DNA of 64,000 nt from a virus. Under the pieces are notes generated by a model. It had not been told where the DNA came from. It did not search any database and was given only the letters and a program-made list of their open reading frames with translations. Both the position numbers and the translations under genes were made by a program. The stretch lies in the IMG/VR virus record IMGVR_UViG_3300034198_015569, positions 24,428-88,427 of that record. One strand, given 5' to 3'. Below, in pieces: positions 2,731 through 35,063 of this stretch (position 1 is its first letter; every line of letters begins with the position of its first letter).

Positions 2731-3750
2731 ATGAGTACATCACAAATCGAAAAAATAATTAATCTAGATTATGATGAAAGCTTCTTTATTGAAGCATTTA
2801 ATGATTATAACGGTGACGTATATATTATTAAATTCAATGAAACTATTGACTTCCCTCCATATCTAATTACTGATTTCATCAAATCAAAATATCCAAGTAC
2901 CAAAGTAAAATTCTTTTCAGATAGTCAAGCAAATATCATCATATCTGATGATCTAAAGGCTTATATGTCTATTTCCAGCGGCGAATCTTATTTTGAAGAA
3001 AGTGATAATGCTACCACCGTTTATATTTCCGCTGGTGGCTCGCTCGAAAAAACTAAAGAATTTAATTCTTTAATTAAAAACTTTTTTGATAATATTGAAA
3101 ATAAGGCTCATTACGGTGAGTGGTGGTTTCTTTCAAAGAAAGGCGGAATCACAAATATCAGCCTTAAAGTAAAGCCTATGAAAAAGTTCAATCAGCTTTG
3201 CTATCCTTATATTGAAAATATTGAAGAGTTCATCAACGGTTTCTATGCGTCAGATGCTCCGGTTATGATTTTCCTTGGTCCTCCTGGCCTTGGTAAAACT
3301 TCAATTCTAAAATATATGATCAATCGTGATAATCTAAAAGTTGTCACTACTTATGACGAAAAAGTCATGGAAGATGATTCTTTTTACATGTCTTTTATTC
3401 GTTCAAAAAATGATCTTTTGATCCTTGAAGATGCTGATCGTATCCTTCGTGAACGCAAGCTTGAAAATTCTGTAATGTCTAAGCTTCTTAATGTGTCTGA
3501 TGGTATCTTCAGTCTCGATAAGAAAAAGATTATCTTTACAACTAATGCTGAAAAGCGTGAAATTGATGAGGCAATCCTTCGCCCTGGACGTTGCTACAAA
3601 TTGGTTGAATTCAGACCTTTGACACGATTGGAAGCCGAAGCATTGGCAGAATCTCTTGGTAAAGAGCTTACTGTTAACAAATCTGAATACACTCTGGCCG
3701 AAATTTTTAGCGGTCAAAACCAATCAAAAAATAAATTTGGATTTCGCTAA
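2731..3750 (+). CDS. AAA+ ATPase
   Basis: GPPGLGKT Walker A, LILEDAD Walker B, LRPGR arginine finger. Confidence 0.85.
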   Translation: MSTSQIEKIINLDYDESFFIEAFNDYNGDVYIIKFNETIDFPPYLITDFIKSKYPSTKVKFFSDSQANIIISDDLKAYMSISSGESYFEESDNATTVYISAGGSLEKTKEFNSLIKNFFDNIENKAHYGEWWFLSKKGGITNISLKVKPMKKFNQLCYPYIENIEEFINGFYASDAPVMIFLGPPGLGKTSILKYMINRDNLKVVTTYDEKVMEDDSFYMSFIRSKNDLLILEDADRILRERKLENSVMSKLLNVSDGIFSLDKKKIIFTTNAEKREIDEAILRPGRCYKLVEFRPLTRLEAEALAESLGKELTVNKSEYTLAEIFSGQNQSKNKFGFR

Positions 3751-3920
3751 AAAAGCTATTGACGGCATGTAGGGAATATCATAGTCTGTATGTGTTGAAG
3801 ATGCTTAGAGAAAAGAGAAATGAGACATAGGAGGCACCAATGCTCTGATAATTAAAAAAATATCTTGATTATAGATTTGTGATTTGATATAGATTGGATA
3901 GAAACCTTAAGGAGATTAAA

Positions 3921-3950
3921 ATGAATAGCTCCCGAGATTCCCCGATTTAA
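3921..3950 (+). CDS. micro-ORF MNSSRDSPI
   Basis: AAGGAG RBS at canonical spacing before ATG, TAA stop. Confidence 0.4.
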   Translation: MNSSRDSPI

Positions 3951-4009
3951 TACAAAATTGATAGTTAGATATAGATTGTGATTATTAGAGAAACTTTAGG
4001 AGATTAACT

Positions 4010-4039
4010 ATGGTAAGCAGCACTGGTCCCCCGAGGTAA
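4010..4039 (+). CDS. micro-ORF MVSSTGPPR
   Basis: TAGGAG RBS, upstream region repeats that of the 3921 micro-ORF. Confidence 0.4.
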   Translation: MVSSTGPPR

Positions 4040-4112
4040 AACTTAAAATGCGCCCCAAAACGGCGCTTATTAGATTGATAGATATAGATAAATTGTAGGT
4101 TGTAAGTGGTGT

Positions 4113-4145
4113 GGTCCTGGGCATGACCTTAACAAAAACTGCCCA
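4113..4145 (+). ncRNA. H-type pseudoknot element
   Basis: GGTC/GACC stem; loop TGGGCA complementary to downstream TGCCCA after an A-rich linker. Confidence 0.45.
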
Positions 4146-4166
4146 TTAGTTTTGTTGGGAGGTTGA

Positions 4167-4388
4167 ATGATTTTTGTATATACATTACAAAACATTATAG
4201 GATTATTGATTTTTACAATTTTCTTTATTGGTATAATATTTTATGGTATTGTAAAGGGAGTCAAATCTCTTAATCGATGGCGCAAATCTGGATTTTGCCG
4301 ACACGATTGGAAATTTAATAAATCAAATTCTTTTAGTCAAAAGCACTGGTATAAGTGTAATAAATGCAATGAAGAAAGGCTCATGTAA
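4167..4388 (+). CDS. small membrane protein with Cys/His motif
   Basis: N-terminal TM; CRHDW...CNKC. Confidence 0.55.
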   Translation: MIFVYTLQNIIGLLIFTIFFIGIIFYGIVKGVKSLNRWRKSGFCRHDWKFNKSNSFSQKHWYKCNKCNEERLM

Positions 4389-12693: not shown

Positions 12694-12718
12694 TTAAATT
12701 AATGATCCTGTGAATAAT

Positions 12719-12805
12719 GAGATTGTGGGTTCATGCGAATTCAGGCACAGCACGAATACTTAAAATATTCGACCTTTGTGGGTTCGATTCCCACCAATCT
12801 CACCA
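12719..12805 (+). tRNA. tRNA-Leu(TAA), expanded D region
   Basis: GAGATTG/CAATCTC-ACCA; CGAATA-CTTAAAA-TATTCG; GTGGG-TTCGATT-CCCAC. Confidence 0.7.
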
Positions 12806-12816
12806 ATTTCCCTTTT

Positions 12817-12891
12817 GCGGTTGTAGCTCAATGGTAGAGCAGGGCCTTCTAAACGCCATGGTAGTGGGTTCGAATCCCACCTACCGCACCA
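12817..12891 (+). tRNA. tRNA with CTA in anticodon register (possible amber suppressor; weak anticodon stem)
   Basis: 75-nt cloverleaf; loop TTCTAAA in canonical register, only 3 of 5 stem pairs. Confidence 0.55.
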
Positions 12892-16775: not shown

Positions 16776-17044
16776 TTAATATTAATTTATATATTGGAAA
16801 CCCATTTTCCAAACAAGTATATAATGAAATTTTAGAAGAACTTTATTATAAGAACTGGCGTCTGTGCTCACATAAAGTGTTTGAAGTACAAATATTTAAA
16901 TTTAATAAAAAAGATATTTTTGACTTCTCTTTTGAAATTCGCCCAAAGACGGTTGATCATGCTGGTTGGAGTTTTGAATTAAGACTCTTCGGGTTTGGTC
17001 CGTCATTTGCATTCTATGACACCCGACATTCTGATCAGCGATGA
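16772..17044 (+). CDS. hypothetical protein
   Basis: Coupled ORF. Confidence 0.55.
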   Translation: MININLYIGNPFSKQVYNEILEELYYKNWRLCSHKVFEVQIFKFNKKDIFDFSFEIRPKTVDHAGWSFELRLFGFGPSFAFYDTRHSDQR

Positions 17045-17919
17045 AAAAAACTATAAATTACGAATATTTGGAAGAAAAAGTTCATTATAATATTCCCGCA
17101 CTTGATACCAAATTGTATAAAGGAATAATTATTGATACTGAAACCGTCGATAAAAACGAAGATTCTGATATAATTGAATTGGCAGCACTTTTATTTACAT
17201 TTGATCTTAATGGTACGGTATATGAAGTAATCGACCAATATCATTCATACAACGATACAGATCAGGAAATATCTTCTGGTGCGTTTGCTAAACATGGTCT
17301 TACAAAAGACGATATTAAGGGACATTCTATAGATATAGAATTACTAAAAGATTGGCGAAAGCAATCTGTAATAGTAATTGCCCATAATGCTGTATTTGAT
17401 CGCGGAAAGCTTTTGAGAAAAATACCAGAATTTAGAAAAAGTTATTGGGCATGCACATGTTATGACATTGATTGGGAAGCGCAAGGCTATACCCATAAAA
17501 CCTTAGAATATCTTACTCTCAAAAATAGAATTCATTATGAAAATGGACACAGAGCCACAACGGATTGTCATTATCTTTTAGAGTTAGTTTCAAGAGAACT
17601 TCCTTCGACCGGAATTCCCATACTTCGTCATCTCATGGATGCCGCAAGTAAAGAGGTTTATATTATTGGGATTAAACTCGATCCATATTCAGAAGACTTA
17701 AAGAATTATCTTAAAGATTGGCGATATGATTATCATAAAGAAAATAAAGCTTGGACGAATAGTAAATTGAGCCAAAAAGAATTTATCGATCAATGTAAAA
17801 TTATTTCTGAATATGGAAATAAAGATAATATTAGATGGAGTAAAATTTCTAGACGTGATCCCGAATATTTTGACTTGACAAAGGAATATACATACAATAT
17901 GTTGTTCTCTCCAAAATAG
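17041..17919 (+). CDS. DEDDh 3'-5' exonuclease (DnaQ-like)
   Basis: IDTET, AHNAVFD, HRATTD motifs. Confidence 0.85.
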   Translation: MKKTINYEYLEEKVHYNIPALDTKLYKGIIIDTETVDKNEDSDIIELAALLFTFDLNGTVYEVIDQYHSYNDTDQEISSGAFAKHGLTKDDIKGHSIDIELLKDWRKQSVIVIAHNAVFDRGKLLRKIPEFRKSYWACTCYDIDWEAQGYTHKTLEYLTLKNRIHYENGHRATTDCHYLLELVSRELPSTGIPILRHLMDAASKEVYIIGIKLDPYSEDLKNYLKDWRYDYHKENKAWTNSKLSQKEFIDQCKIISEYGNKDNIRWSKISRRDPEYFDLTKEYTYNMLFSPK

Positions 17920-17928
17920 GAGGAAACT

Positions 17929-18321
17929 GTGTTTCTTTTAGATTATATTATGTACATTTATATAGGTAATGAATTTCATTTTGTTGAATATGATTCCGAT
18001 ATTGAAAAAGAATATGACCAGAAGACACTACGTTTTCTTGGTTGTATGGAAGACCTATTCTCAGAATTAACTCTTCTAGATGCTTATGGCGCAGCAAATG
18101 AAGAAAACATTAAGTGGCTCATTTATGATGTTGGAAAGCGTCACATGGGCTCTAATAAGAAGCAACTATTAAATGATTACTTTCGAGTAATGTATATGAT
18201 TTGGGGCGGACGAGAAGAAGGTCCGCGTTGGGATACTTTCATCTGTATGTTTGGTGTTCAGAGATTTATTGATGTTATGAAAGCCAGAATCGATGATCCA
18301 TGGAGAATTGGATATGAGTGA
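17929..18321 (+). CDS. protein resembling the anticodon-binding domain of class I LysRS
   Basis: IYDVGKRH...YFRVMYMIWGGREEGPRWDTFI..FG recalls the LysRS-I C-terminal LY..L.G...GPR.GSF segment. Confidence 0.55.
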   Translation: MFLLDYIMYIYIGNEFHFVEYDSDIEKEYDQKTLRFLGCMEDLFSELTLLDAYGAANEENIKWLIYDVGKRHMGSNKKQLLNDYFRVMYMIWGGREEGPRWDTFICMFGVQRFIDVMKARIDDPWRIGYE

Positions 18322-20175: not shown

Positions 20176-20251
20176 TCGCCTTTAGTTTAAATGGTAAAAC
20201 ACTTGATTCTGATTCAGGCAGATGTAGGTTCGAATCCTACAGGGCGATCCA
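20176..20251 (+). tRNA. tRNA-Gln(CTG)
   Basis: U1-A72; loop TTCTGAT; TTCGAAT; CCA. Confidence 0.85.
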
Positions 20252-30996: not shown

Positions 30997-31006
30997 AAGG
31001 CAATGA

Positions 31007-31744
31007 ATGTCTGATTCTTTACTTGATAAGATGAAGCGATTGAATGATTCGGTTAATTCCAATTCATTCAATCGCCAGAAAACACACGATCAATCACGTA
31101 TTGGTCGAATGCAAGATGATGTAACCAAGCTTCATCGCTTTTGGCTACAATTTACTTTTGCATGTTGGTGGGTTTGGACACGAATTCTTTTTCCTATTTT
31201 CAGATTTATGTCTAAACCAATGAGATGGGCATTTTATGCCTATCGTCATCTCTGGAGTATTGTAGTTTATACACAGGATAAATATGGAGCACTTGTTTTT
31301 TCGAAGATGCGTGCTGGTATGTTTCTGACAGCAACTGTCATTATTCTTTATATGATGCCAGTTATTGCAAACCTGACATATGACACTACAATGTTTGCAG
31401 CCACGGTTGATTATGACGAAGAGGTTTATCTAACCAATTCTCAGGAAATCATTCCAGAATCAGACATTCATTCTGTCCAAGGTTGTAATAAACTTCCTTG
31501 CACTGATGATAATAGTATTTACTATCGTGTGAACCCGTCTTTGTTCAATCATATCTGGAGTTTTATTACCAATAAGAATTGGTTTTTTCCAGATTATGTT
31601 GCGGCGGCTGTTCCTCCTGGCGTGAGTAAGTGTAAGATCACGTCATATGGAATTCGTATTAAGCTTCTGATTCGAAATGCGGATATATATCCCGACCTTC
31701 TGCAAGCGAGTTGTCAACCTATAAATACTGAAATTGGAAAATGA
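31007..31744 (+). CDS. membrane protein
   Basis: TM segments followed by Cys-containing soluble domain. Confidence 0.6.
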   Translation: MSDSLLDKMKRLNDSVNSNSFNRQKTHDQSRIGRMQDDVTKLHRFWLQFTFACWWVWTRILFPIFRFMSKPMRWAFYAYRHLWSIVVYTQDKYGALVFSKMRAGMFLTATVIILYMMPVIANLTYDTTMFAATVDYDEEVYLTNSQEIIPESDIHSVQGCNKLPCTDDNSIYYRVNPSLFNHIWSFITNKNWFFPDYVAAAVPPGVSKCKITSYGIRIKLLIRNADIYPDLLQASCQPINTEIGK

Positions 31745-31745
31745 A

Positions 31746-32123
31746 ATGAAATATGCTATAATTACAACGTTCTGTTTACTTTTTCTTGCTGCATGTGATT
31801 CGGATGCTAATGTTGCTTCCTATAATTTATCTAAAGCAGCGGACCAATTTGAAATCAATCGCAGAATTGTTTTCTATAATGGTATTACTGATAGTTATAT
31901 GTTAACTATCGAGGGACTATGCTCATTGGGTAATGATGACAAGCCGGGACAACGCACAGTAACTTGTAAAGTTGGCCCCAATGCTTATAAAAAACATTAT
32001 TTGGGTCTTTCCGATAATGTGACGTATTTTGCAGAACAACTTGAATCGGCACAGGTAAGTAAATACCATTATAAGGTTATTTTCAAACCTTCTGTCATTC
32101 TTCCCGATGTAGATTTAAAATGA
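31746..32123 (+). CDS. phage lipoprotein
   Basis: LAAC lipobox; ASYNLSKAAD.F...RRIVFYNGITD. Confidence 0.7.
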   Translation: MKYAIITTFCLLFLAACDSDANVASYNLSKAADQFEINRRIVFYNGITDSYMLTIEGLCSLGNDDKPGQRTVTCKVGPNAYKKHYLGLSDNVTYFAEQLESAQVSKYHYKVIFKPSVILPDVDLK

Positions 32124-32142
32124 TCCTAGAAAATAATTTTCA

Positions 32143-32172
32143 TTGACACCACAAAAAAGTTGATATAAAATT
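32143..32172 (+). promoter_or_regulatory. sigma70-like promoter for CUA tRNA operon
   Basis: TTGACA followed by TATAAAAT at -10 spacing. Confidence 0.5.
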
Positions 32173-32188
32173 ATAAATCATTAAGTAT

Positions 32189-32264
32189 GATCCATTAGTT
32201 TAAGGGTAAAACACCGGGCTCTAATCCCGGAGATGACAGATACCAGCACTGTCATGGGTTGCCA
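32189..32264 (+). tRNA. amber-suppressor-type tRNA (anticodon CTA)
   Basis: GATCCAT/ATGGGTT-GCCA; GTTT/AAAC D stem; perfect CCGGG-CTCTAAT-CCCGG arm; atypical 9-nt T loop. Confidence 0.75.
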
Positions 32265-32285
32265 ATGAAAATAAAAGGAAAGAAA

Positions 32286-32336
32286 ATGACCCTCTAGATT
32301 AAAAAGTATTAGATTCGTGGTCCCCCGTGTACCTAA
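32286..32336 (+). CDS. amber-containing micro-ORF MTL*IKKY*IRGPPCT
   Basis: AAGGA RBS; TAG at codons 4 and 9; TAA stop. Confidence 0.45.
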
Positions 32337-32381
32337 TTGAACCAAATAAACAAAATTTAATTCAATTAGGAGAATACACAA

Positions 32382-32753
32382 ATGATTAACAACATCGAAA
32401 AGTACATTAATTCTAACCATCTTTACACTCAATATAACCTTGTGAGAAAGCAAGGCCAGCGTCTTATAGATGCAGCTACGGTAAATTCTAAAGAGGAATA
32501 CCTAGCTTGGGTAAAGGATTGGAAAGAATCTATTAAGAACCTCGAATCTCATATTCGTTATTGTAAGTTTATGCGCAGTCCAGTACGTCAAGAAAATGAT
32601 CCAAATAAGCCAGAAGGCTTCATAATTGATGCTGATCAATATTGTCGGTTTGCAAACGCATATGGACTTCTCGCTCATGAACTTTACAATAAGCGTGTTG
32701 AAATGAAAGAGGCTTCAATTGAAGCAAAGAAAAAGCTTCTAGAAGTAGCATAA
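32382..32753 (+). CDS. hypothetical protein (paralog of 32835)
   Basis: EEYLAWVKDWK motif; AGGAG RBS. Confidence 0.7.
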   Translation: MINNIEKYINSNHLYTQYNLVRKQGQRLIDAATVNSKEEYLAWVKDWKESIKNLESHIRYCKFMRSPVRQENDPNKPEGFIIDADQYCRFANAYGLLAHELYNKRVEMKEASIEAKKKLLEVA

Positions 32754-32834
32754 GTAAAATTAGGAGGCTGGAAATTAATCCAGCCTCCCTATTGAAATCT
32801 CATTTAGAATCATATATTGTGAAGGAGAAATTAA

Positions 32835-33182
32835 ATGCAGAAGTTTAATACGCAGCGTCAGCTTTCCAATTATAAGAATAAGCATACTCATGAAGTAAAT
32901 ATCAATGAGTTGCGGAATAATATTCTTTATACAATTGCTCTAGCTGATGTTGATACTCGTGAGAAGTATCTAGAATGGGTTGAGGCATGGAAGAAGACGA
33001 ACGTTGATCTTGTGAAGCTGATCAAGGCTTATAAGAAGAAGCGTCAGAATCTTTCGAATGATTCGGCTTCTACCGAAGGAATTCTTGCTGAAGCTCGCTA
33101 TCTCGCACAGTCTTTTTATGCGCAGCGTTATCGTATGAAGATTATGTCAATTCTTAATCAGGCTGATGATTTGGAAGTTTGA
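32835..33182 (+). CDS. hypothetical protein (paralog of 32382)
   Basis: EKYLEWVEAWK motif; AAGGAG RBS. Confidence 0.7.
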   Translation: MQKFNTQRQLSNYKNKHTHEVNINELRNNILYTIALADVDTREKYLEWVEAWKKTNVDLVKLIKAYKKKRQNLSNDSASTEGILAEARYLAQSFYAQRYRMKIMSILNQADDLEV

Positions 33183-33589
33183 ATATAAATAAATTAGGAT
33201 ATTTGTTGAGTTTATTAAATTTATCGTCGGTTTCACAGGGAACAGTAGGTCTTGGATTTGCAATTGCTCATTATGTAGCAGAAGGCAAAATAGTTTCCAT
33301 TCCATTAAACGACAATCAAGATTATGATTTAGTTGTTGAAGAAAATGGGAAACTTAAAAAAGTTCAAGTCAAAACATCTCGTGTGAAAGAGAACGGTAAT
33401 TTTAGAGTCGAAATACGAAAAATTCGATCAAATAAAACAATAAATAAAGTAATAGAATTTAATAATACAACTTGTGATATTGTATTTGTATATTGTGATG
33501 ATGGAACAAAATATTCAATACCATCTGATAAAATACATACAAAAACTACAATTGTATTAAATCAAAAGTTTAATGAATTTAAACTTTAA
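33179..33589 (+). CDS. PD-(D/E)xK endonuclease (homing type)
   Basis: VSIPL.D...YDLVVE...KVQVKT. Confidence 0.75.
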   Translation: MNINKLGYLLSLLNLSSVSQGTVGLGFAIAHYVAEGKIVSIPLNDNQDYDLVVEENGKLKKVQVKTSRVKENGNFRVEIRKIRSNKTINKVIEFNNTTCDIVFVYCDDGTKYSIPSDKIHTKTTIVLNQKFNEFKL

Positions 33590-33590
33590 T

Positions 33591-33683
33591 GGATACTGAA
33601 CTTCACCAGCGTGGAGCCCGATCTTGAAAATCGGTGGAACCCCTAGTAAGGGTTTGGAGGGCAGCACTACCCGGTATCCGCCA
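33591..33683 (+). tRNA. tRNA-Ser(TGA)
   Basis: CCGAT-CTTGAAA-ATCGG; long variable arm; G73-CCA. Confidence 0.75.
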
Positions 33684-33689
33684 ATTCTT

Positions 33690-33780
33690 GGAAAGTAAAC
33701 CATACGGGGTATGGCACTGTTTGGAAAACAGTTGGAACCTTGAAAAAGTGTTTGCGGATCGAGACCGCTGCTTTCCTCCA
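33690..33780 (+). tRNA. tRNA-Ser(GGA)
   Basis: ACTGT-TTGGAAA-ACAGT; long variable arm; CCA. Confidence 0.75.
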
Positions 33781-33807
33781 TTTTTAAAATAATGAATAGG
33801 TGAAAAT

Positions 33808-33999
33808 ATGACTCTTACTGAACTTCACATTGAATGGGATAATCTATCTAAGTCTCGTCGTGAGACTGCTATTCGCTCATTGTTTGATGAGCTTCAGCGT
33901 GATCCAGAGCAATATGAAGATTTTATTTATGATATCCTGTCTCAAGCTGTTGATCTTGAGACCGATGATTATTTTGGAACTGAAGGCTTGAAAGTTTAA
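33808..33999 (+). CDS. hypothetical acidic protein
   Basis: AGGT RBS; DDYFGTEG tail. Confidence 0.55.
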   Translation: MTLTELHIEWDNLSKSRRETAIRSLFDELQRDPEQYEDFIYDILSQAVDLETDDYFGTEGLKV

Positions 34000-34047
34000 T
34001 TTTTCTCTGTATAATTAACTCCTCATTAACTTAAAGGAGTTAAGAAA

Positions 34048-34245
34048 ATGAATAATTTTTGGTTGGCATTTTTTCTCGCTGCGGGAATGACCTTTTGGTC
34101 AATCATCACATATATAGTTGTATATTTTCTAGTTGGATTGCTTGGAGTTGTACTCGCAATTATCATAATTTTTGGTATGTTTTTGCTGGTGTTGTGGCTA
34201 TTGGCACATCTCATTATGGAGAGACCGATTCCCACTGAACCGTAA
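34048..34245 (+). CDS. small membrane protein
   Basis: AAGGAG RBS; hydrophobic. Confidence 0.55.
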   Translation: MNNFWLAFFLAAGMTFWSIITYIVVYFLVGLLGVVLAIIIIFGMFLLVLWLLAHLIMERPIPTEP

Positions 34246-34258
34246 AAGTGGTCTAAAT

Positions 34259-34333
34259 GCTCCCTTAGCTCAGTGGTAGAGCGCTTCTATGACACGGAAG
34301 AAGTCGTATGTTCGATTCATACAGGGAGCACCA
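34259..34333 (+). tRNA. tRNA-Val(GAC)
   Basis: Canonical cloverleaf, loop ATGACAC, CCA. Confidence 0.9.
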
Positions 34334-34436
34334 TTAAGTTTTCTTTAACCATATACTATCGCACTGCAATAACATCATTGACAGCGAAGATAGCCATTGA
34401 TACCTTCTCCTTACATTCAATCAAGGGGAGGCTTTA

Positions 34437-34655
34437 ATGACCCATCTCTTTAAGAAGCTGTTTCGTAATGTGATCAAGGGTTCGGTTGTGTTCGTTGGCT
34501 CTGGTATAATCGGAGCGGTTCTAATGTACACAATGTGGCTGATGCCCCTGGCGTATGCTGCTTTTTGGGGTTTCGTGGCTGTTCTCTATATCGGGTATCT
34601 CGTCTATGAAGTGAGAGAATGGCGGCATGGATGCTGCACACGGTACTGGAGTTAA
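34437..34655 (+). CDS. small membrane protein
   Basis: GGAGG RBS; two TMs. Confidence 0.55.
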   Translation: MTHLFKKLFRNVIKGSVVFVGSGIIGAVLMYTMWLMPLAYAAFWGFVAVLYIGYLVYEVREWRHGCCTRYWS

Positions 34656-34673: not shown

Positions 34674-35063
34674 ATGAACGTTAATCAAAAAGGAGTTAAG
34701 GGTTTAATCAAAATTATAGACCATTTAACAGATAAAAGCTGGTATTGTTTTCCAGCTTTTGATGATCATTCTCCAGTTGACTTGATAATTATGAATGAAG
34801 CTGGTAAGCTTATGAAACTCCAGATAAAATATAGGAGTCGCATACAAAGGTTCGTATCAGAAAGATATGAACTACAAGCATCTTCCGTTGTCAACGGAAA
34901 ACGAGTAGATATCAACAGGATTTTAATAGATGGTTGGGGTGTGTATCTTGAGGAAGCACAAAAAGTAGTTTTCATCCATAAAAATTATTTAATTAATAAA
35001 AAAAGTTTTATTATTAATCCTAATATAAATTACTTATCTTTGGAAGAATGGCCGAGTGGTTGA
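34674..35063 (+). CDS. PD-(D/E)xK endonuclease (homing type)
   Basis: DHSPVDLII...LQIKY; 3' end overlaps tRNA-Ser. Confidence 0.7.
   Translation: MNVNQKGVKGLIKIIDHLTDKSWYCFPAFDDHSPVDLIIMNEAGKLMKLQIKYRSRIQRFVSERYELQASSVVNGKRVDINRILIDGWGVYLEEAQKVVFIHKNYLINKKSFIINPNINYLSLEEWPSG

What the first reader, a model, noticed from the sequence alone, without database searches (positions are those of the whole stretch)
32143..33182. Amber-suppressor tRNA followed by a two-amber micro-ORF ending in RGPP, upstream of a paralog pair
Seen: a promoter, then a tRNA with a perfect CCGGG-CT CTA AT-CCCGG arm and CCA. An RBS-led ATG ACC CTC TAG ATT AAA AAG TAT TAG ATT CGT GGT CCC CCG TGT ACC TAA starts 21 nt later, followed by two paralogous genes. 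Known: RAPP/RAGP/RGPP-type motifs are ribosome arrest signals. Inference: the ribosome reaches RGPP only when both ambers are suppressed, so this could be a sensor that couples suppressor-tRNA activity or RF1 status to downstream expression or to its own feedback.
Basis: partly seen in the sequence, partly recalled or inferred. Interest (0 to 1): 0.85.

Follow-up and report, generated by a model that had tools for sequence, protein, structure and literature searches.

The report
Stop-codon-gated stalling leader beside suppressor tRNA
A large uncultured phage places a UAG-reading tRNA-like gene, a tiny leader that reaches a ribosome-stalling Arg-Gly-Pro-Pro motif only if two UAG stops are read through, and two small helical-protein genes in one unit, which looks like a natural switch that turns those genes on only while stop-codon read-through is working.

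Summary
Window 32143-33182 contains, in order:
- a strong sigma-70-like promoter;
- a tRNA-like gene with a CUA anticodon. Rfam scores it 35.8 bits against a cut-off of 29. ARAGORN misses it, and its T-loop is an odd 9 nt;
- an SD-led micro-ORF 21 nt later, with two in-frame TAGs, then RGPP, then TAA;
- a hairpin that hides the SD of the next gene;
- two real paralogues.

RGPP occurs once in all six frames of the 88-kb contig, and that one occurrence is here. Folding shows the hairpin survives a ribosome stopped at either UAG and is lost when a ribosome sits at RGPP.

Comparative support is thin but independent:
- An unrelated IMG/VR phage lineage has the same cassette: promoter, CUA tRNA, amber leader, same protein family. 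There the leader runs through a terminator and has no RGPP.
- In the cultured jumbo phages Atu_ph07 and Phosso the same protein family ends operons led by stop-interrupted Pro-Pro leaders.
- The leader's stop matches each phage's suppressor tRNA: UGA with UCA in Atu_ph07, UAG with CUA in Phosso.

This scan has noted the same design on other DNA, as unchecked AI notes. Four literature searches found no published natural example.

Best reading, at confidence about 0.6: a read-through-gated arrest leader. Nothing has been tested experimentally. The function of the adjacent tRNA and of the gated proteins is unknown.

The parts
32143..32171 (+). Sigma-70-like promoter, TTGACA-17-TAAAAT
   Evidence: 11 of 12 matches. 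The homologous cassette in L067 also begins with TTGACAC, has a 17-nt spacer and TATACT, ending 15 nt before its tRNA.
32189..32264 (+). tRNA-like gene with CUA anticodon, discriminator G and encoded CCA; atypical 9-nt T-loop
   Evidence: Rfam RF00005 35.8 bits against 29. ARAGORN is silent. The 5' third, acceptor part plus D-arm, is nearly identical to the phage's own tRNA-Gln(CUG) at 20176-20251.
32275..32279 (+). Shine-Dalgarno (AAGGA) of the leader, 6 nt before its ATG
   Evidence: Read from the sequence. Listed among the 15 SD-led intergenic micro-ORFs of the contig.
32286..32336 (+). Leader micro-ORF of 16 sense positions: M T L UAG I K K Y UAG I R G P P C T UAA. UAG at 32295-32297 and 32310-32312; RGPP codons 32316-32327
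   Evidence: RGPP is unique in six frames of the 88-kb contig. The start 'ATGAC.. TAGATTA' is shared with the L067 leader.
32327..32379 (+). Hairpin that hides the next SD. 5' arm 32327-32341 (last leader codons and stop); 3' arm 32361-32370 plus 32375-32379
   Evidence: 15 pairs, z -2.64, 3 of 200 shuffles as stable; intact with a ribosome at either UAG, lost with a ribosome at RGPP or at UAA.
32368..32372 (+). Shine-Dalgarno (AGGAG) of paralogue 1; three of its five bases pair in the hairpin
   Evidence: Mean P(unpaired) is 0.40 free and 0.63 with the stalled-ribosome constraint.
32382..32753 (+). Paralogue 1 (123 aa), a three-helix-bundle protein of an unnamed family with motif ..KEEYLxWVxxWK..
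   Evidence: (AF2 pLDDT 90.3).
32762..32789 (+). GC-rich hairpin between the paralogues; role unknown
   Evidence: (11 pairs, listed as terminator-like on the minus strand).
32835..33182 (+). Paralogue 2 (115 aa), same family
   Evidence: 33% identity, E 3e-9.
12817..12891 (+). Second, more canonical CUA-anticodon tRNA of the phage; a possible real suppressor acting in trans
   Evidence: ARAGORN; Rfam 60.6 bits. Its D-arm and anticodon arm resemble the cassette tRNA of L067.
20176..20251 (+). tRNA-Gln(CUG), probable source paralogue of the tRNA-like gene

Best explanation
This is a read-through-gated regulatory leader. One promoter drives a CUA-anticodon tRNA-like gene, a 16-codon leader and two paralogous genes.

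- With normal termination, ribosomes on the leader stop after three codons at the first UAG, or at the second. They are then too far upstream to disturb a hairpin that pairs the Shine-Dalgarno of paralogue 1, so that gene stays poorly translated.
- When UAG is decoded, the ribosome reaches Arg-Gly-Pro-Pro. The decoder would be the phage's CUA tRNA(s), probably inserting Gln, competing against RF1.
- The ribosome then stalls with Pro codons in the P and A sites. Its footprint covers the 5' arm of the hairpin and frees the SD, switching on paralogue 1. Whether paralogue 2 is under the same control is not shown.
- Two ambers make the output depend on roughly the square of suppression efficiency, which gives a threshold.

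Shown: the anatomy, the rarity of the motif, the fold geometry, and recurrence of the tRNA / stop-leader / protein-family association in other phages. Inferred: decoding, stalling, unmasking and the direction of control.
For: - Anatomy and coordinates.
- RGPP occurs once in 176,850 codon positions of the contig, and that is here.
- RGPP is reported as the most robust arrest core, refractory to EF-P, the most avoided tetrapeptide, and enriched near the C-termini of small uORFs (PMC12992588, abstract and sections 8, 10, 12, 13).
- The hairpin is unaffected by a ribosome at UAG-1 or UAG-2 (MFE -17.5 and -15.5, SD P(unpaired) 0.40). It is abolished by a ribosome at RGPP (MFE -1.3, 0.63).
- The IMG/VR lineage L067-L069 (GC 45%, near-identical in the promoter-to-gene stretch printed, so counted once) is a lone plus-strand cassette among minus-strand genes. 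It has TTGACAC promoter, ARAGORN-called tRNA(CUA), a leader starting ATG ACG TAG ATT A.., and a 109-aa member of the same family. With TAG read, that leader runs 44 codons through a 14-bp terminator (z -6.07) and ends in TAA overlapping the gene's ATG.
- A family profile also hits the last gene of the Pth2 operons of Atu_ph07 (E 1.6e-7) and Phosso (E 5e-8).
- Those operons are led by micro-ORFs with an internal stop followed by Pro-Pro codons complementary to the next SD. The stop is UGA in Atu_ph07, which has one UCA tRNA and no CUA among 30 ARAGORN calls (PMC6102473 passage). It is UAG in Phosso, which has 2 CUA and 0 UCA or UUA among 60.
- The genes after the two leaders are orthologues (36% identity, E 1e-20).
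- The stop matches the suppressor in 4 of 4 lineages examined.
- Control: 0 of 117 chance matches to the shared leader-start pattern lie within 400 nt of a CUA tRNA.
Against: - There are no expression, charging or stalling data. No RNA run holds the stretch, and DNA contigs of two samples are identical to the window, so there is no variation to read.
- The adjacent tRNA-like gene has a 9-nt T-loop, is missed by ARAGORN, and scores second-lowest of the window's Rfam tRNA hits.
- RGPP and the SD hairpin are not conserved in the only homologous cassette, L067, which uses a terminator and coupling instead.
- The comparative base is four lineages.
- No closer relative was found in seven of the eight scans of viral contigs (one found the L067-L069 lineage), two of metagenome contigs, one of genome contigs or seven searches of GenBank phages.
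- Arrest by RGPP has been shown in the papers read only within longer arrest peptides; a 13-residue chain is untested.
- Two-amber short frames with an SD occur 3 times in the contig by pattern alone.
- No Pth2 lies in this 88-kb fragment, unlike the loci in the scan's earlier notes.
Confidence: 0.6

Rival explanations
1. Coincidence. The tRNA-like gene is real or decayed, but the micro-ORF is untranslated intergenic sequence. The TAGs, RGPP and hairpin have no joint function; the hairpin may simply stabilise or process the mRNA.
For: - Short frames with two or more in-frame TAGs are 21 of 2103 ATGs, 3 with an SD.
- A 15-codon stretch free of TAA and TGA is not unusual in this composition.
- The promoter scan is not enriched overall.
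- RGPP is absent from the L067 cassette.
Against: - RGPP is unique in six frames and lies exactly in the SD-led frame ending in the hairpin arm.
- The leader start with its amber is kept in an otherwise diverged homologous cassette.
- The stop covaries with the anticodon in Atu_ph07 and Phosso.
- 0 of 117 chance pattern matches lie next to a CUA tRNA.
Confidence: 0.17
2. The leader works, but as a gauge of host release factor 1 or of the canonical CUA tRNA at 12817. The adjacent tRNA-like gene is a non-decoding relic or a processing handle that defines the 5' end of the mRNA.
For: - Aberrant T-loop, no ARAGORN call and a low Rfam score.
- A second CUA tRNA scores 60.6 bits, and its arms resemble the L067 cassette tRNA.
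- The phage carries many tRNA look-alike RNAs.
Against: - The element keeps a full cloverleaf, a 7-nt anticodon loop with U33 and A37, a G discriminator and an encoded CCA, and stands directly behind a strong promoter.
- Several other ARAGORN-called tRNAs of this phage are missed by Rfam, so odd tRNAs are the norm here.
- It lacks the shared handle of the Ro60-associated RNAs.
Confidence: 0.15
3. The phage reassigns TAG genome-wide in late genes. The micro-ORF is then an ordinary small gene read in that code, not a sensor.
For: - There are two CUA tRNAs.
- TAG ends only 5 of 108 plus-strand ORFs of 80 aa or more.
- Only about 36% of the genome is in hand.
- Recoded phages with suppressor tRNAs are known (bioRxiv 10.1101/2021.08.26.457843, abstract seen in the listing).
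Against: - No conserved gene in the 88 kb needs an in-frame TAG. The one TAG-joined pair, 17041-18321, has homologues covering only the first part.
- A 16-codon peptide ending in the most avoided stalling motif, overlapping an SD-hiding hairpin, looks regulatory.
Confidence: 0.05
4. A T-box-like RNA switch. The UAGA words act as specifier codons for the CUA anticodon, and the UGGU inside the RGPP codons pairs with the GCCA end of the uncharged tRNA, with no translation involved.
For: Both UAGs are followed by A. UGGU lies 5' of the SD-hiding hairpin. MFE folding of 32172-32400 pairs the tRNA 3' end with that stretch.
Against: - No T-box (RF00230) match among the 10 matches at E up to 10.
- The leader is about 115 nt, with no Stem I platform.
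- An SD and ATG sit in front of the frame.
- The Atu_ph07 and Phosso leaders have different sequences but the same coding logic.
Confidence: 0.03

Closest known systems
RAPP/RGPP-type regulatory arrest peptides (ApdA, ApdP, ApcA; SecM with RAGP; RAPP/RGPP uORFs of Streptomyces lividans; CruR). PMC12992588 (abstract and sections 8, 10, 12, 13 read); PMC10987492 (search listing only)
   Same: - A small upstream ORF with R-G-P-P close to its C-terminus.
- A downstream gene whose ribosome-binding site lies in a structure that a ribosome stalled at the motif would open.
- The motif is otherwise avoided; it occurs once in six frames here.
   Different: - Known examples are longer peptides, mostly with signal or membrane segments, and the stall is relieved by Sec/YidC pulling or modulated by a ligand such as copper.
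- Here the peptide has 16 positions and no localisation signal.
- The input is whether two stop codons are read through.
- Arrest has not been demonstrated.
Synthetic 'Uaa transcriptional switch': a TAG placed in a trp/tna-type leader peptide, so downstream genes need amber suppression (PMC6412442, section 6 and the Figure 8 legend, passages read)
   Same: Same logic: translation of a leader beyond an inserted UAG, by a CUA suppressor tRNA, is required for downstream expression.
   Different: - Engineered, dependent on an unnatural amino acid, and acting through Rho/rut-dependent transcription termination.
- The present element is natural, has two UAGs, and appears to act on translation initiation through a stall and an SD hairpin. 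Its L067 relative uses an intrinsic terminator.
Stop-interrupted Pro-Pro leaders of the Pth2 operons of Agrobacterium phage Atu_ph07 and Sinorhizobium phage Phosso. Seen here; this scan's earlier AI notes describe similar loci
   Same: - A micro-ORF with an internal stop that matches the phage's own suppressor tRNA.
- Pro-Pro codons next to or within an anti-SD.
- The gated operon contains a member of the same three-helix protein family.
   Different: - Those leaders have one internal stop and KPP-stop or RSPP, gate a five- to six-gene operon with a peptidyl-tRNA hydrolase, and lie kilobases or more from the tRNA.
- Here there are two ambers and RGPP, the tRNA-like gene is in the same transcription unit, and no Pth2 is in the fragment.
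prfB (RF2) autoregulatory frameshift site and tnaC. Recalled from general knowledge; not checked in a call
   Same: Gene expression set by how efficiently a specific stop codon is terminated inside a short leader or early coding region.
   Different: prfB uses a +1 frameshift at UGA to sense RF2. tnaC senses tryptophan through inhibited termination. Neither uses a suppressor tRNA or a stall motif behind the stop.
Phage stop-codon recoding with suppressor tRNAs (bioRxiv 10.1101/2021.08.26.457843, abstract in the search listing)
   Same: A phage-encoded CUA tRNA, with the idea that read-through times the expression of some genes.
   Different: There the TAGs lie inside many late protein-coding genes. 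Here the visible genes use the standard code, and the TAGs are confined to a leader.

Membership tests
RAPP/RGPP-type regulatory arrest peptide leader | R-[A/G]-P-P core near the C-terminus of a small upstream ORF | tested here: met
   RGPP at codons 11-14 of 16, three codons before the stop. It is reached only by reading two UAGs, and is unique in six frames of the contig.
RAPP/RGPP-type regulatory arrest peptide leader | A stalled ribosome would open a structure that hides the downstream ribosome-binding site | tested here: met
   In silico only. The hairpin is 32327-32379. Constraint folding gives MFE -20.7 free and -1.3 with 32310-32337 held single-stranded.
RAPP/RGPP-type regulatory arrest peptide leader | Demonstrated translation arrest (toeprint, peptidyl-tRNA accumulation) | not testable with these tools
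   No RNA or ribosome data. No RNA holder was listed.
RAPP/RGPP-type regulatory arrest peptide leader | N-terminal signal or membrane segment that lets a localisation machine release the stall (Sec/YidC monitors) | tested here: not met
   Only 10 residues precede RGPP, with no hydrophobic segment. So this is not a Sec/YidC-monitoring member, although it may work like one at the stall step.
tRNA (Rfam RF00005) | Covariance-model score at or above the gathering score | tested here: met
   35.8 bits against 29.
tRNA (Rfam RF00005) | Canonical 7-nt T-loop with T54-Psi55-C56 | tested here: not met
   The loop is 9 nt and lacks the signature. ARAGORN gives no call.
tRNA (Rfam RF00005) | 7-bp acceptor stem, 7-nt anticodon loop with U33 and a purine at 37, discriminator and CCA | tested here: met
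   Read from the Rfam alignment and the sequence. Two G-U pairs lie in the acceptor stem.
tRNA (Rfam RF00005) | Aminoacylation and decoding of UAG | not testable with these tools
   Only an inference of Gln type, from a 5' third nearly identical to the phage tRNA-Gln(CUG).
Stop-codon-gated leader next to a phage suppressor tRNA (unpublished class noted by this scan) | The in-frame stop in an SD-led micro-ORF matches the anticodon of a phage-encoded suppressor tRNA | tested here: met
   - Window: UAG twice, with two CUA tRNAs.
- The same match in L067-L069, Atu_ph07 (UGA and UCA) and Phosso (UAG and CUA).
Stop-codon-gated leader next to a phage suppressor tRNA (unpublished class noted by this scan) | Pro-Pro or RxPP motif after the stop, placed against the next gene's SD | tested here: met
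   Met in the window, Atu_ph07 and Phosso. Not present in L067-L069, which use a terminator.
Stop-codon-gated leader next to a phage suppressor tRNA (unpublished class noted by this scan) | Pth2 (PF01981) gene in the gated operon | tested here: not met
   No PF01981 match at E up to 1 in the 88-kb contig, which is about 36% complete. The gated genes are two members of the three-helix family that ends the Pth2 operons of Atu_ph07 and Phosso.
T-box riboswitch (RF00230) | Match to the covariance model; Stem I with specifier loop and antiterminator bulge | tested here: not met
   No T-box match among the 10 matches at E up to 10 in 31500-33500.
Genome-wide TAG reassignment (code-15-like phage) | In-frame TAG inside conserved protein-coding genes | tested here: not met
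   In the 88 kb held, 5 of 108 ORFs end in TAG and none needs TAG read. The one candidate join is unsupported by homologues. The rest of the genome is unseen.

The most novel reading that the evidence does not exclude
The promoter / CUA tRNA / amber leader / three-helix-protein unit is a portable, self-checking 'code-switch' module. The small helical protein would be the effector that makes suppression work, or makes it tolerable, for instance by antagonising release factor 1 or handling the products of read-through. The amber-gated leader would give positive feedback, so the module commits only once read-through passes a threshold. The duplicated gene here and the fused, Pth2-linked versions in Atu_ph07 and Phosso would be variants of one system that lets phages with a standard-code genome run a private stop-codon read-through state.
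Probability: 0.15. Interest if true: 0.92.

Novelty: new variant of a known kind. Interest (0 to 1): 0.78.

Why it matters
Many large phages with standard-code genomes carry suppressor tRNAs whose purpose is unclear. A leader that can be read to a stall motif only through stop codons matching that tRNA gives such tRNAs a concrete regulatory job. It would also be a natural sensor of the cell's stop-codon read-through state, a device so far known only from synthetic biology.

This window adds three things:
- A compact cassette with tRNA, leader and cargo in one transcription unit.
- A link to a previously unnamed three-helix protein family that recurs behind such leaders.
- Two cultured phages, Atu_ph07 and Phosso, in which the leader's stop and the suppressor's anticodon differ together. 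That makes the idea testable at the bench with ordinary reporters.

Tried and rejected
**Close relatives of the locus: none found**
- Megablast of 31000-34500 against GenBank phages.
- tblastn of paralogue 1, the L067 protein, P0010 and P0006 against phages.
- Viral contigs with paralogue 1, alignments A1 (only Atu_ph07 itself) and A5, and P0004.
- Metagenome contigs with A1.
- Genome contigs with A4.
- The word-index protein search returned only the protein itself.

**DNA patterns**
- The anticodon arm gave 0 matches in viral contigs. It gave 26 unrelated GC-rich matches in metagenome contigs, none tRNA-like.
- The pattern TAG-N12-TAG-N3-RGPP gave 34 loci, all chance matches, mostly out of frame in GC-rich contigs.
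- The shared leader-start pattern gave 117 matches in 116 loci, none next to a CUA tRNA.

**Expression**
- No RNA holder was listed.
- The laid contigs of X1 and X2 are identical to the window, and X3 holds only unrelated short matches.

**Function of the paralogues**
- No Pfam family; one weak PHROG of unknown function.
- The first AF2 model, from two sequences, was poor (pLDDT 60.4). The second, from 19 sequences, was good.
- That model had no PDB match at E up to 0.001 and no usable atlas hit.

**Ideas dropped**
- That the T-loop's CAGCA ties the element to the Ro60-associated RNAs. CAGCA occurs 46 times in the window, and the shared handle is absent.
- That TAGATT is a phage promoter word. 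It is intergenic in 17 of 35 cases, against 395 of 934 for TAG itself.
- That the TAG between 17041-17919 and 17929-18321 is a programmed read-through. Homologues in 17 records cover only residues 13-273.
- That gp607, next to the Atu_ph07 opal tRNA, belongs to the family (hhalign probability 0.6%).

**Pth2 loci of other phages** (regex scan; five loci scanned)
- Phosso: positive.
- RsoM2USA: a possible ochre-interrupted micro-ORF, not followed.
- phiM12: one hit inside a gene, taken as chance.
- Xoo-sp13 and XacN1: none.

Complex prediction was not used, because I claim no binding. Supplementary files of the papers were not opened.
Full report
**Where the window lies.** The window is bases 24428-88427 of an 88,427-bp IMG/VR virus contig, estimated about 36% complete. 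Almost all genes lie on the plus strand, and the contig carries 20 ARAGORN tRNAs. Its closest named relative is the 490-kb Agrobacterium jumbo phage Atu_ph07. The ClpB-like ATPase is 48.5% identical, and the flanking gp493-like and gp488-like genes are syntenic. GC content is 36%, so the host is not Agrobacterium.

**Checking the observation.**
- A TTGACA-17-TAAAAT promoter lies at 32143-32171, 11 of 12 matches. It is the joint best of 14 sites in 3 kb, though the scan as a whole is not above its shuffles (12.9 expected).
- At 32189-32260 Rfam's tRNA model scores 35.8 bits against a gathering score of 29. E is 2.6e-5 in a 2-kb search and 8.2e-4 in the whole window.
- The element has a 7-bp acceptor stem with two G-U pairs, a D-arm, a perfect 5-bp anticodon stem and the loop CUCUAAU (anticodon CUA). 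It also has a 4-nt variable region, a 5-bp T-stem, discriminator G and an encoded CCA ending at 32264.
- It is atypical. The T-loop has 9 nt without the T-Psi-C signature, and ARAGORN does not call it.
- Odd tRNAs are common in this phage. Seven ARAGORN tRNAs of the window are absent from Rfam's gathering list.
- Its 5' third is almost identical to the phage's own tRNA-Gln(CUG) at 20176-20251. It is therefore probably a Gln-type duplicate whose anticodon became CUA.
- A second, more canonical CUA tRNA lies at 12817-12891 (ARAGORN; Rfam 60.6 bits).

**The micro-ORF.** Twenty-one bases after the CCA, an AAGGA (32275-32279) precedes the ATG at 32286 by 6 nt. The frame reads M T L UAG I K K Y UAG I R G P P C T UAA, with TAG at 32295 and 32310, RGPP at 32316-32327 and the stop at 32334-32336. 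No ATG, GTG or TTG follows the ambers, so RGPP can be reached only by read-through. A further in-frame ATG lies at 32265.

**Is it more than chance?**
- Two ambers in a short frame are not rare by themselves. Of 2103 plus-strand ATGs, 21 start frames of 25 codons or fewer with two or more in-frame TAGs, and 3 of those have an SD-like word.
- RGPP occurs exactly once in 176,850 codon positions over six frames, and that occurrence is this one. RAPP never occurs, and RAGP occurs once, inside a tRNA.
- The 10-nt word that encodes G-P-P occurs twice in the window (0.02 expected; 0 of 100 shuffles reach two). The other copy is also in frame, in an SD-led micro-ORF at 4010-4039.
- So 2 of the contig's 8 plus-strand Gly-Pro-Pro codon triplets fall in its 15 SD-led intergenic micro-ORFs.

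**What is known about RGPP.** Fujiwara et al. (PMC12992588; abstract and sections 8, 10, 12 and 13 read) report the following.
- RGPP generally supports the most robust arrest among RAPP-like cores.
- The arrest is refractory to EF-P.
- RGPP is the most under-represented tetrapeptide in 10 major bacterial groups.
- RAPP and RGPP concentrate near the C-termini of small ORFs upstream of regulated genes.
- Those experiments used longer arrest peptides. A 13-residue chain has not been tested.

**Geometry.**
- RNA folding of 32261-32400 gives a hairpin. Its 5' arm (32327-32341) consists of the last Pro codon's final base, the Cys and Thr codons, the UAA and five more bases.
- Its 3' arm (32361-32370 plus 32375-32379) pairs three of the five bases of the AGGAG of paralogue 1. 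The start codon at 32382 follows. The z-score is -2.64, and 3 of 200 shuffles fold as well.
- I modelled ribosome footprints as forced single-stranded stretches.
  - A ribosome at the first or second UAG leaves the hairpin intact (MFE -17.5 and -15.5; SD mean P(unpaired) 0.40, as in the free RNA).
  - A ribosome with the Pro codons in the P and A sites removes it (MFE -1.3; 0.63).
  - A ribosome terminating at UAA does too (0.51).
- This is the arrangement used by known arrest-peptide switches. It is a model, not a measurement.

**The genes behind the leader.**
- The genes at 32382-32753 (123 aa) and 32835-33182 (115 aa) are true paralogues, 33% identical, E 3e-9. Neither has a Pfam family.
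- A profile of the pair finds 29 representative proteins at E up to 0.001 among 1.84 billion, the two own proteins included. These are small proteins sharing a ..KEEYLxWVxxWK.. helix and a C-terminal Y..R..K helix, many ending in Ala.
- With 19 sequences AlphaFold gives a confident three-helix bundle (pLDDT 90.3, pTM 0.79).
- That model has no PDB match at E up to 0.001, and the atlas gives no usable hit. The function is unknown.

**Comparative evidence: a homologous cassette.**
- Close relatives of the locus were not found (see Tried and rejected). DNA contigs from two samples of one study are identical to the window, so there is no micro-variation to read.
- A family-based scan of IMG/VR did return one independent lineage, L067-L069. 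The three contigs are near-identical in the promoter-to-gene stretch printed, have GC 44-45%, and are counted once.
- There a single plus-strand cassette sits between minus-strand genes. In order it has:
  - a TTGACAC-17-TATACT promoter;
  - 15 nt later, an ARAGORN-called tRNA(CUA) with a normal T-loop and a G discriminator;
  - a leader that begins ATG ACG TAG ATT A.., against ATG ACC CTC TAG ATT A.. in the window;
  - a 109-aa family member.
- If the TAG is read, that leader continues for 44 codons through a 14-bp intrinsic terminator with a U-run (z -6.07). It ends in a TAA that overlaps the gene's ATG.
- The gating logic is therefore the same, but the output device differs: antitermination and coupling in place of a stall and an SD hairpin.

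**Comparative evidence: two cultured jumbo phages.** Earlier notes of this scan led me to look here.
- The same family profile hits the last gene of the Pth2 operons of Atu_ph07 (E 1.6e-7) and Sinorhizobium phage Phosso (E 5e-8). These are 2 of the 7 hits among all ORFs of 22 loci plus the contig (hhalign 88.9%).
- Each operon opens with a stop-interrupted micro-ORF.
  - Atu_ph07: M K UGA I V F K P P UAG. Its Pro codons are complementary to the next SD.
  - Phosso: a promoter-proximal M N K K Y T H L UAG L H R S R S P P ... frame. Its S-P-P codons are complementary to the next SD, and its stop overlaps the next start.
- The genes that follow are orthologues (36% identity, E 1e-20).
- Atu_ph07 has one UCA (opal) tRNA and no CUA among the 30 ARAGORN calls covering 31 Rfam hits, one of which is unresolved. 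Its paper states the same (PMC6102473, passage).
- Phosso has two CUA tRNAs, one 3.6 kb upstream of the leader, and no UCA or UUA among 60.
- So the leader's stop and the suppressor's anticodon change together between two related phages. Counting the window and L067-L069, the stop matches the suppressor in 4 of 4 lineages.

**Is the phage recoded?**
- In the 88 kb held, TAG ends 5 of 108 plus-strand ORFs of 80 aa or more.
- No conserved gene needs TAG read. The only TAG-joined pair (17041-18321) has homologues that cover only the first part.
- So in the visible third of the genome the ambers are confined to the leader. The remainder is unseen.

**Mechanism proposed.**
- One promoter makes a tRNA-mRNA transcript.
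- Ribosomes that load on the leader terminate at UAG-1 or UAG-2 unless a CUA tRNA out-competes RF1.
- Those that pass both reach RGPP, stall, and hold the hairpin's 5' arm single-stranded, so the SD of paralogue 1 becomes available.
- Two ambers make the response steeper than one.
- Which CUA tRNA decodes (32189, 12817 or both), which residue is inserted (Gln is inferred), how the stall is resolved, and what the helical proteins do are all unknown.
- I put this reading at about 0.6. The rivals are: pure coincidence 0.17; a working leader with a non-decoding neighbour tRNA 0.15; a genome-wide code change 0.05; a T-box-like RNA switch 0.03. No T-box model matched.

**Comparison with what is known, and novelty.**
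- The element works like an RAPP/RGPP arrest leader. It lacks the localisation signal and the force- or ligand-dependent release that define the described members, and arrest is untested. I therefore do not file it as a member of the Sec/YidC monitors.
- Its input logic equals the synthetic 'TAG in a leader peptide' switch (PMC6412442, section 6 passage).
- Four literature searches returned no natural suppressor-gated leader. Supplements were not seen.
- This scan has reported the same design on other DNA: many AI notes of amber-interrupted RGPP/RPP leaders with Pth2 and CUA tRNAs. I treated these as leads and tested only what is cited above.
- Compared with what those notes summarise, three features of this window stand out: the tRNA-like gene shares the transcription unit, no Pth2 lies in the fragment held, and the cargo is a duplicated member of a three-helix family that I also found at the end of the Atu_ph07 and Phosso operons.

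Noticed in passing
window 3750-4170: A 400-nt intergenic stretch holds three strong-SD micro-ORFs: M L stop at 3840, M N S S R D S P I stop at 3921, and M V S S T G P P R stop at 4010. The third shares the exact 10-nt Gly-Pro-Pro word with the amber leader (0.02 expected). A GC hairpin with a weak U-run follows it, upstream of a 73-aa membrane-protein ORF. It may be another pausing leader.
   Followed up: partly
window 12717-12806: A tRNA-like stretch between tRNA-Leu(UAA) and the CUA tRNA. It has a canonical T-arm and CCA end but an odd 5' half, and neither ARAGORN nor Rfam's gathering list calls it.
   Followed up: no
window 12817-12891: The second CUA tRNA has mismatches at both ends of its anticodon stem (G-A and C-C), although its overall score is good (60.6 bits).
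   Followed up: no
window 17041-18321: An RNase_T-type exonuclease ORF (292 aa) ends in TAG and continues in frame into a 130-aa ORF. Homologues cover only the first part, so programmed read-through is unsupported but not excluded.
   Followed up: partly
family alignment A3 (window 32382-32753, 32835-33182 and P0004-P0026): Many members of the three-helix family end in Ala, Ala-Ala or Val-Ala. The meaning is unknown; a degradation tag is one guess.
   Followed up: no
L083 (Ralstonia phage RsoM2USA) about 2400-2450: Inside a tRNA cluster, and about 500 nt upstream of the Pth2-like gene, lies an SD-led micro-ORF M G I UAA D E A V K F P Q S P P UAG. It may be an ochre-gated version of the same leader type. 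I did not look for a UUA tRNA in this phage.
   Followed up: no
L081 2214-2285 (Atu_ph07 430713-430784): The opal-suppressor tRNA of Atu_ph07 is not among the features listed for this stretch of the RefSeq record, although the phage's paper describes it.
   Followed up: partly
window 33179-33589 and 34674-35063: Two PD-(D/E)XK_5 endonuclease-like genes flank tRNA-Val and small membrane-protein ORFs just downstream of the paralogues. They may be mobile insertions in the tRNA region.
   Followed up: no
window 31734-32123: The gene just upstream of the promoter matches Pfam Phage_VG64 / PHROG 478 (annotated as a recombination directionality factor) at E 5e-55. It is absent from the syntenic place in Atu_ph07, where the gp488 homologue is followed directly by small genes.
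   Followed up: partly
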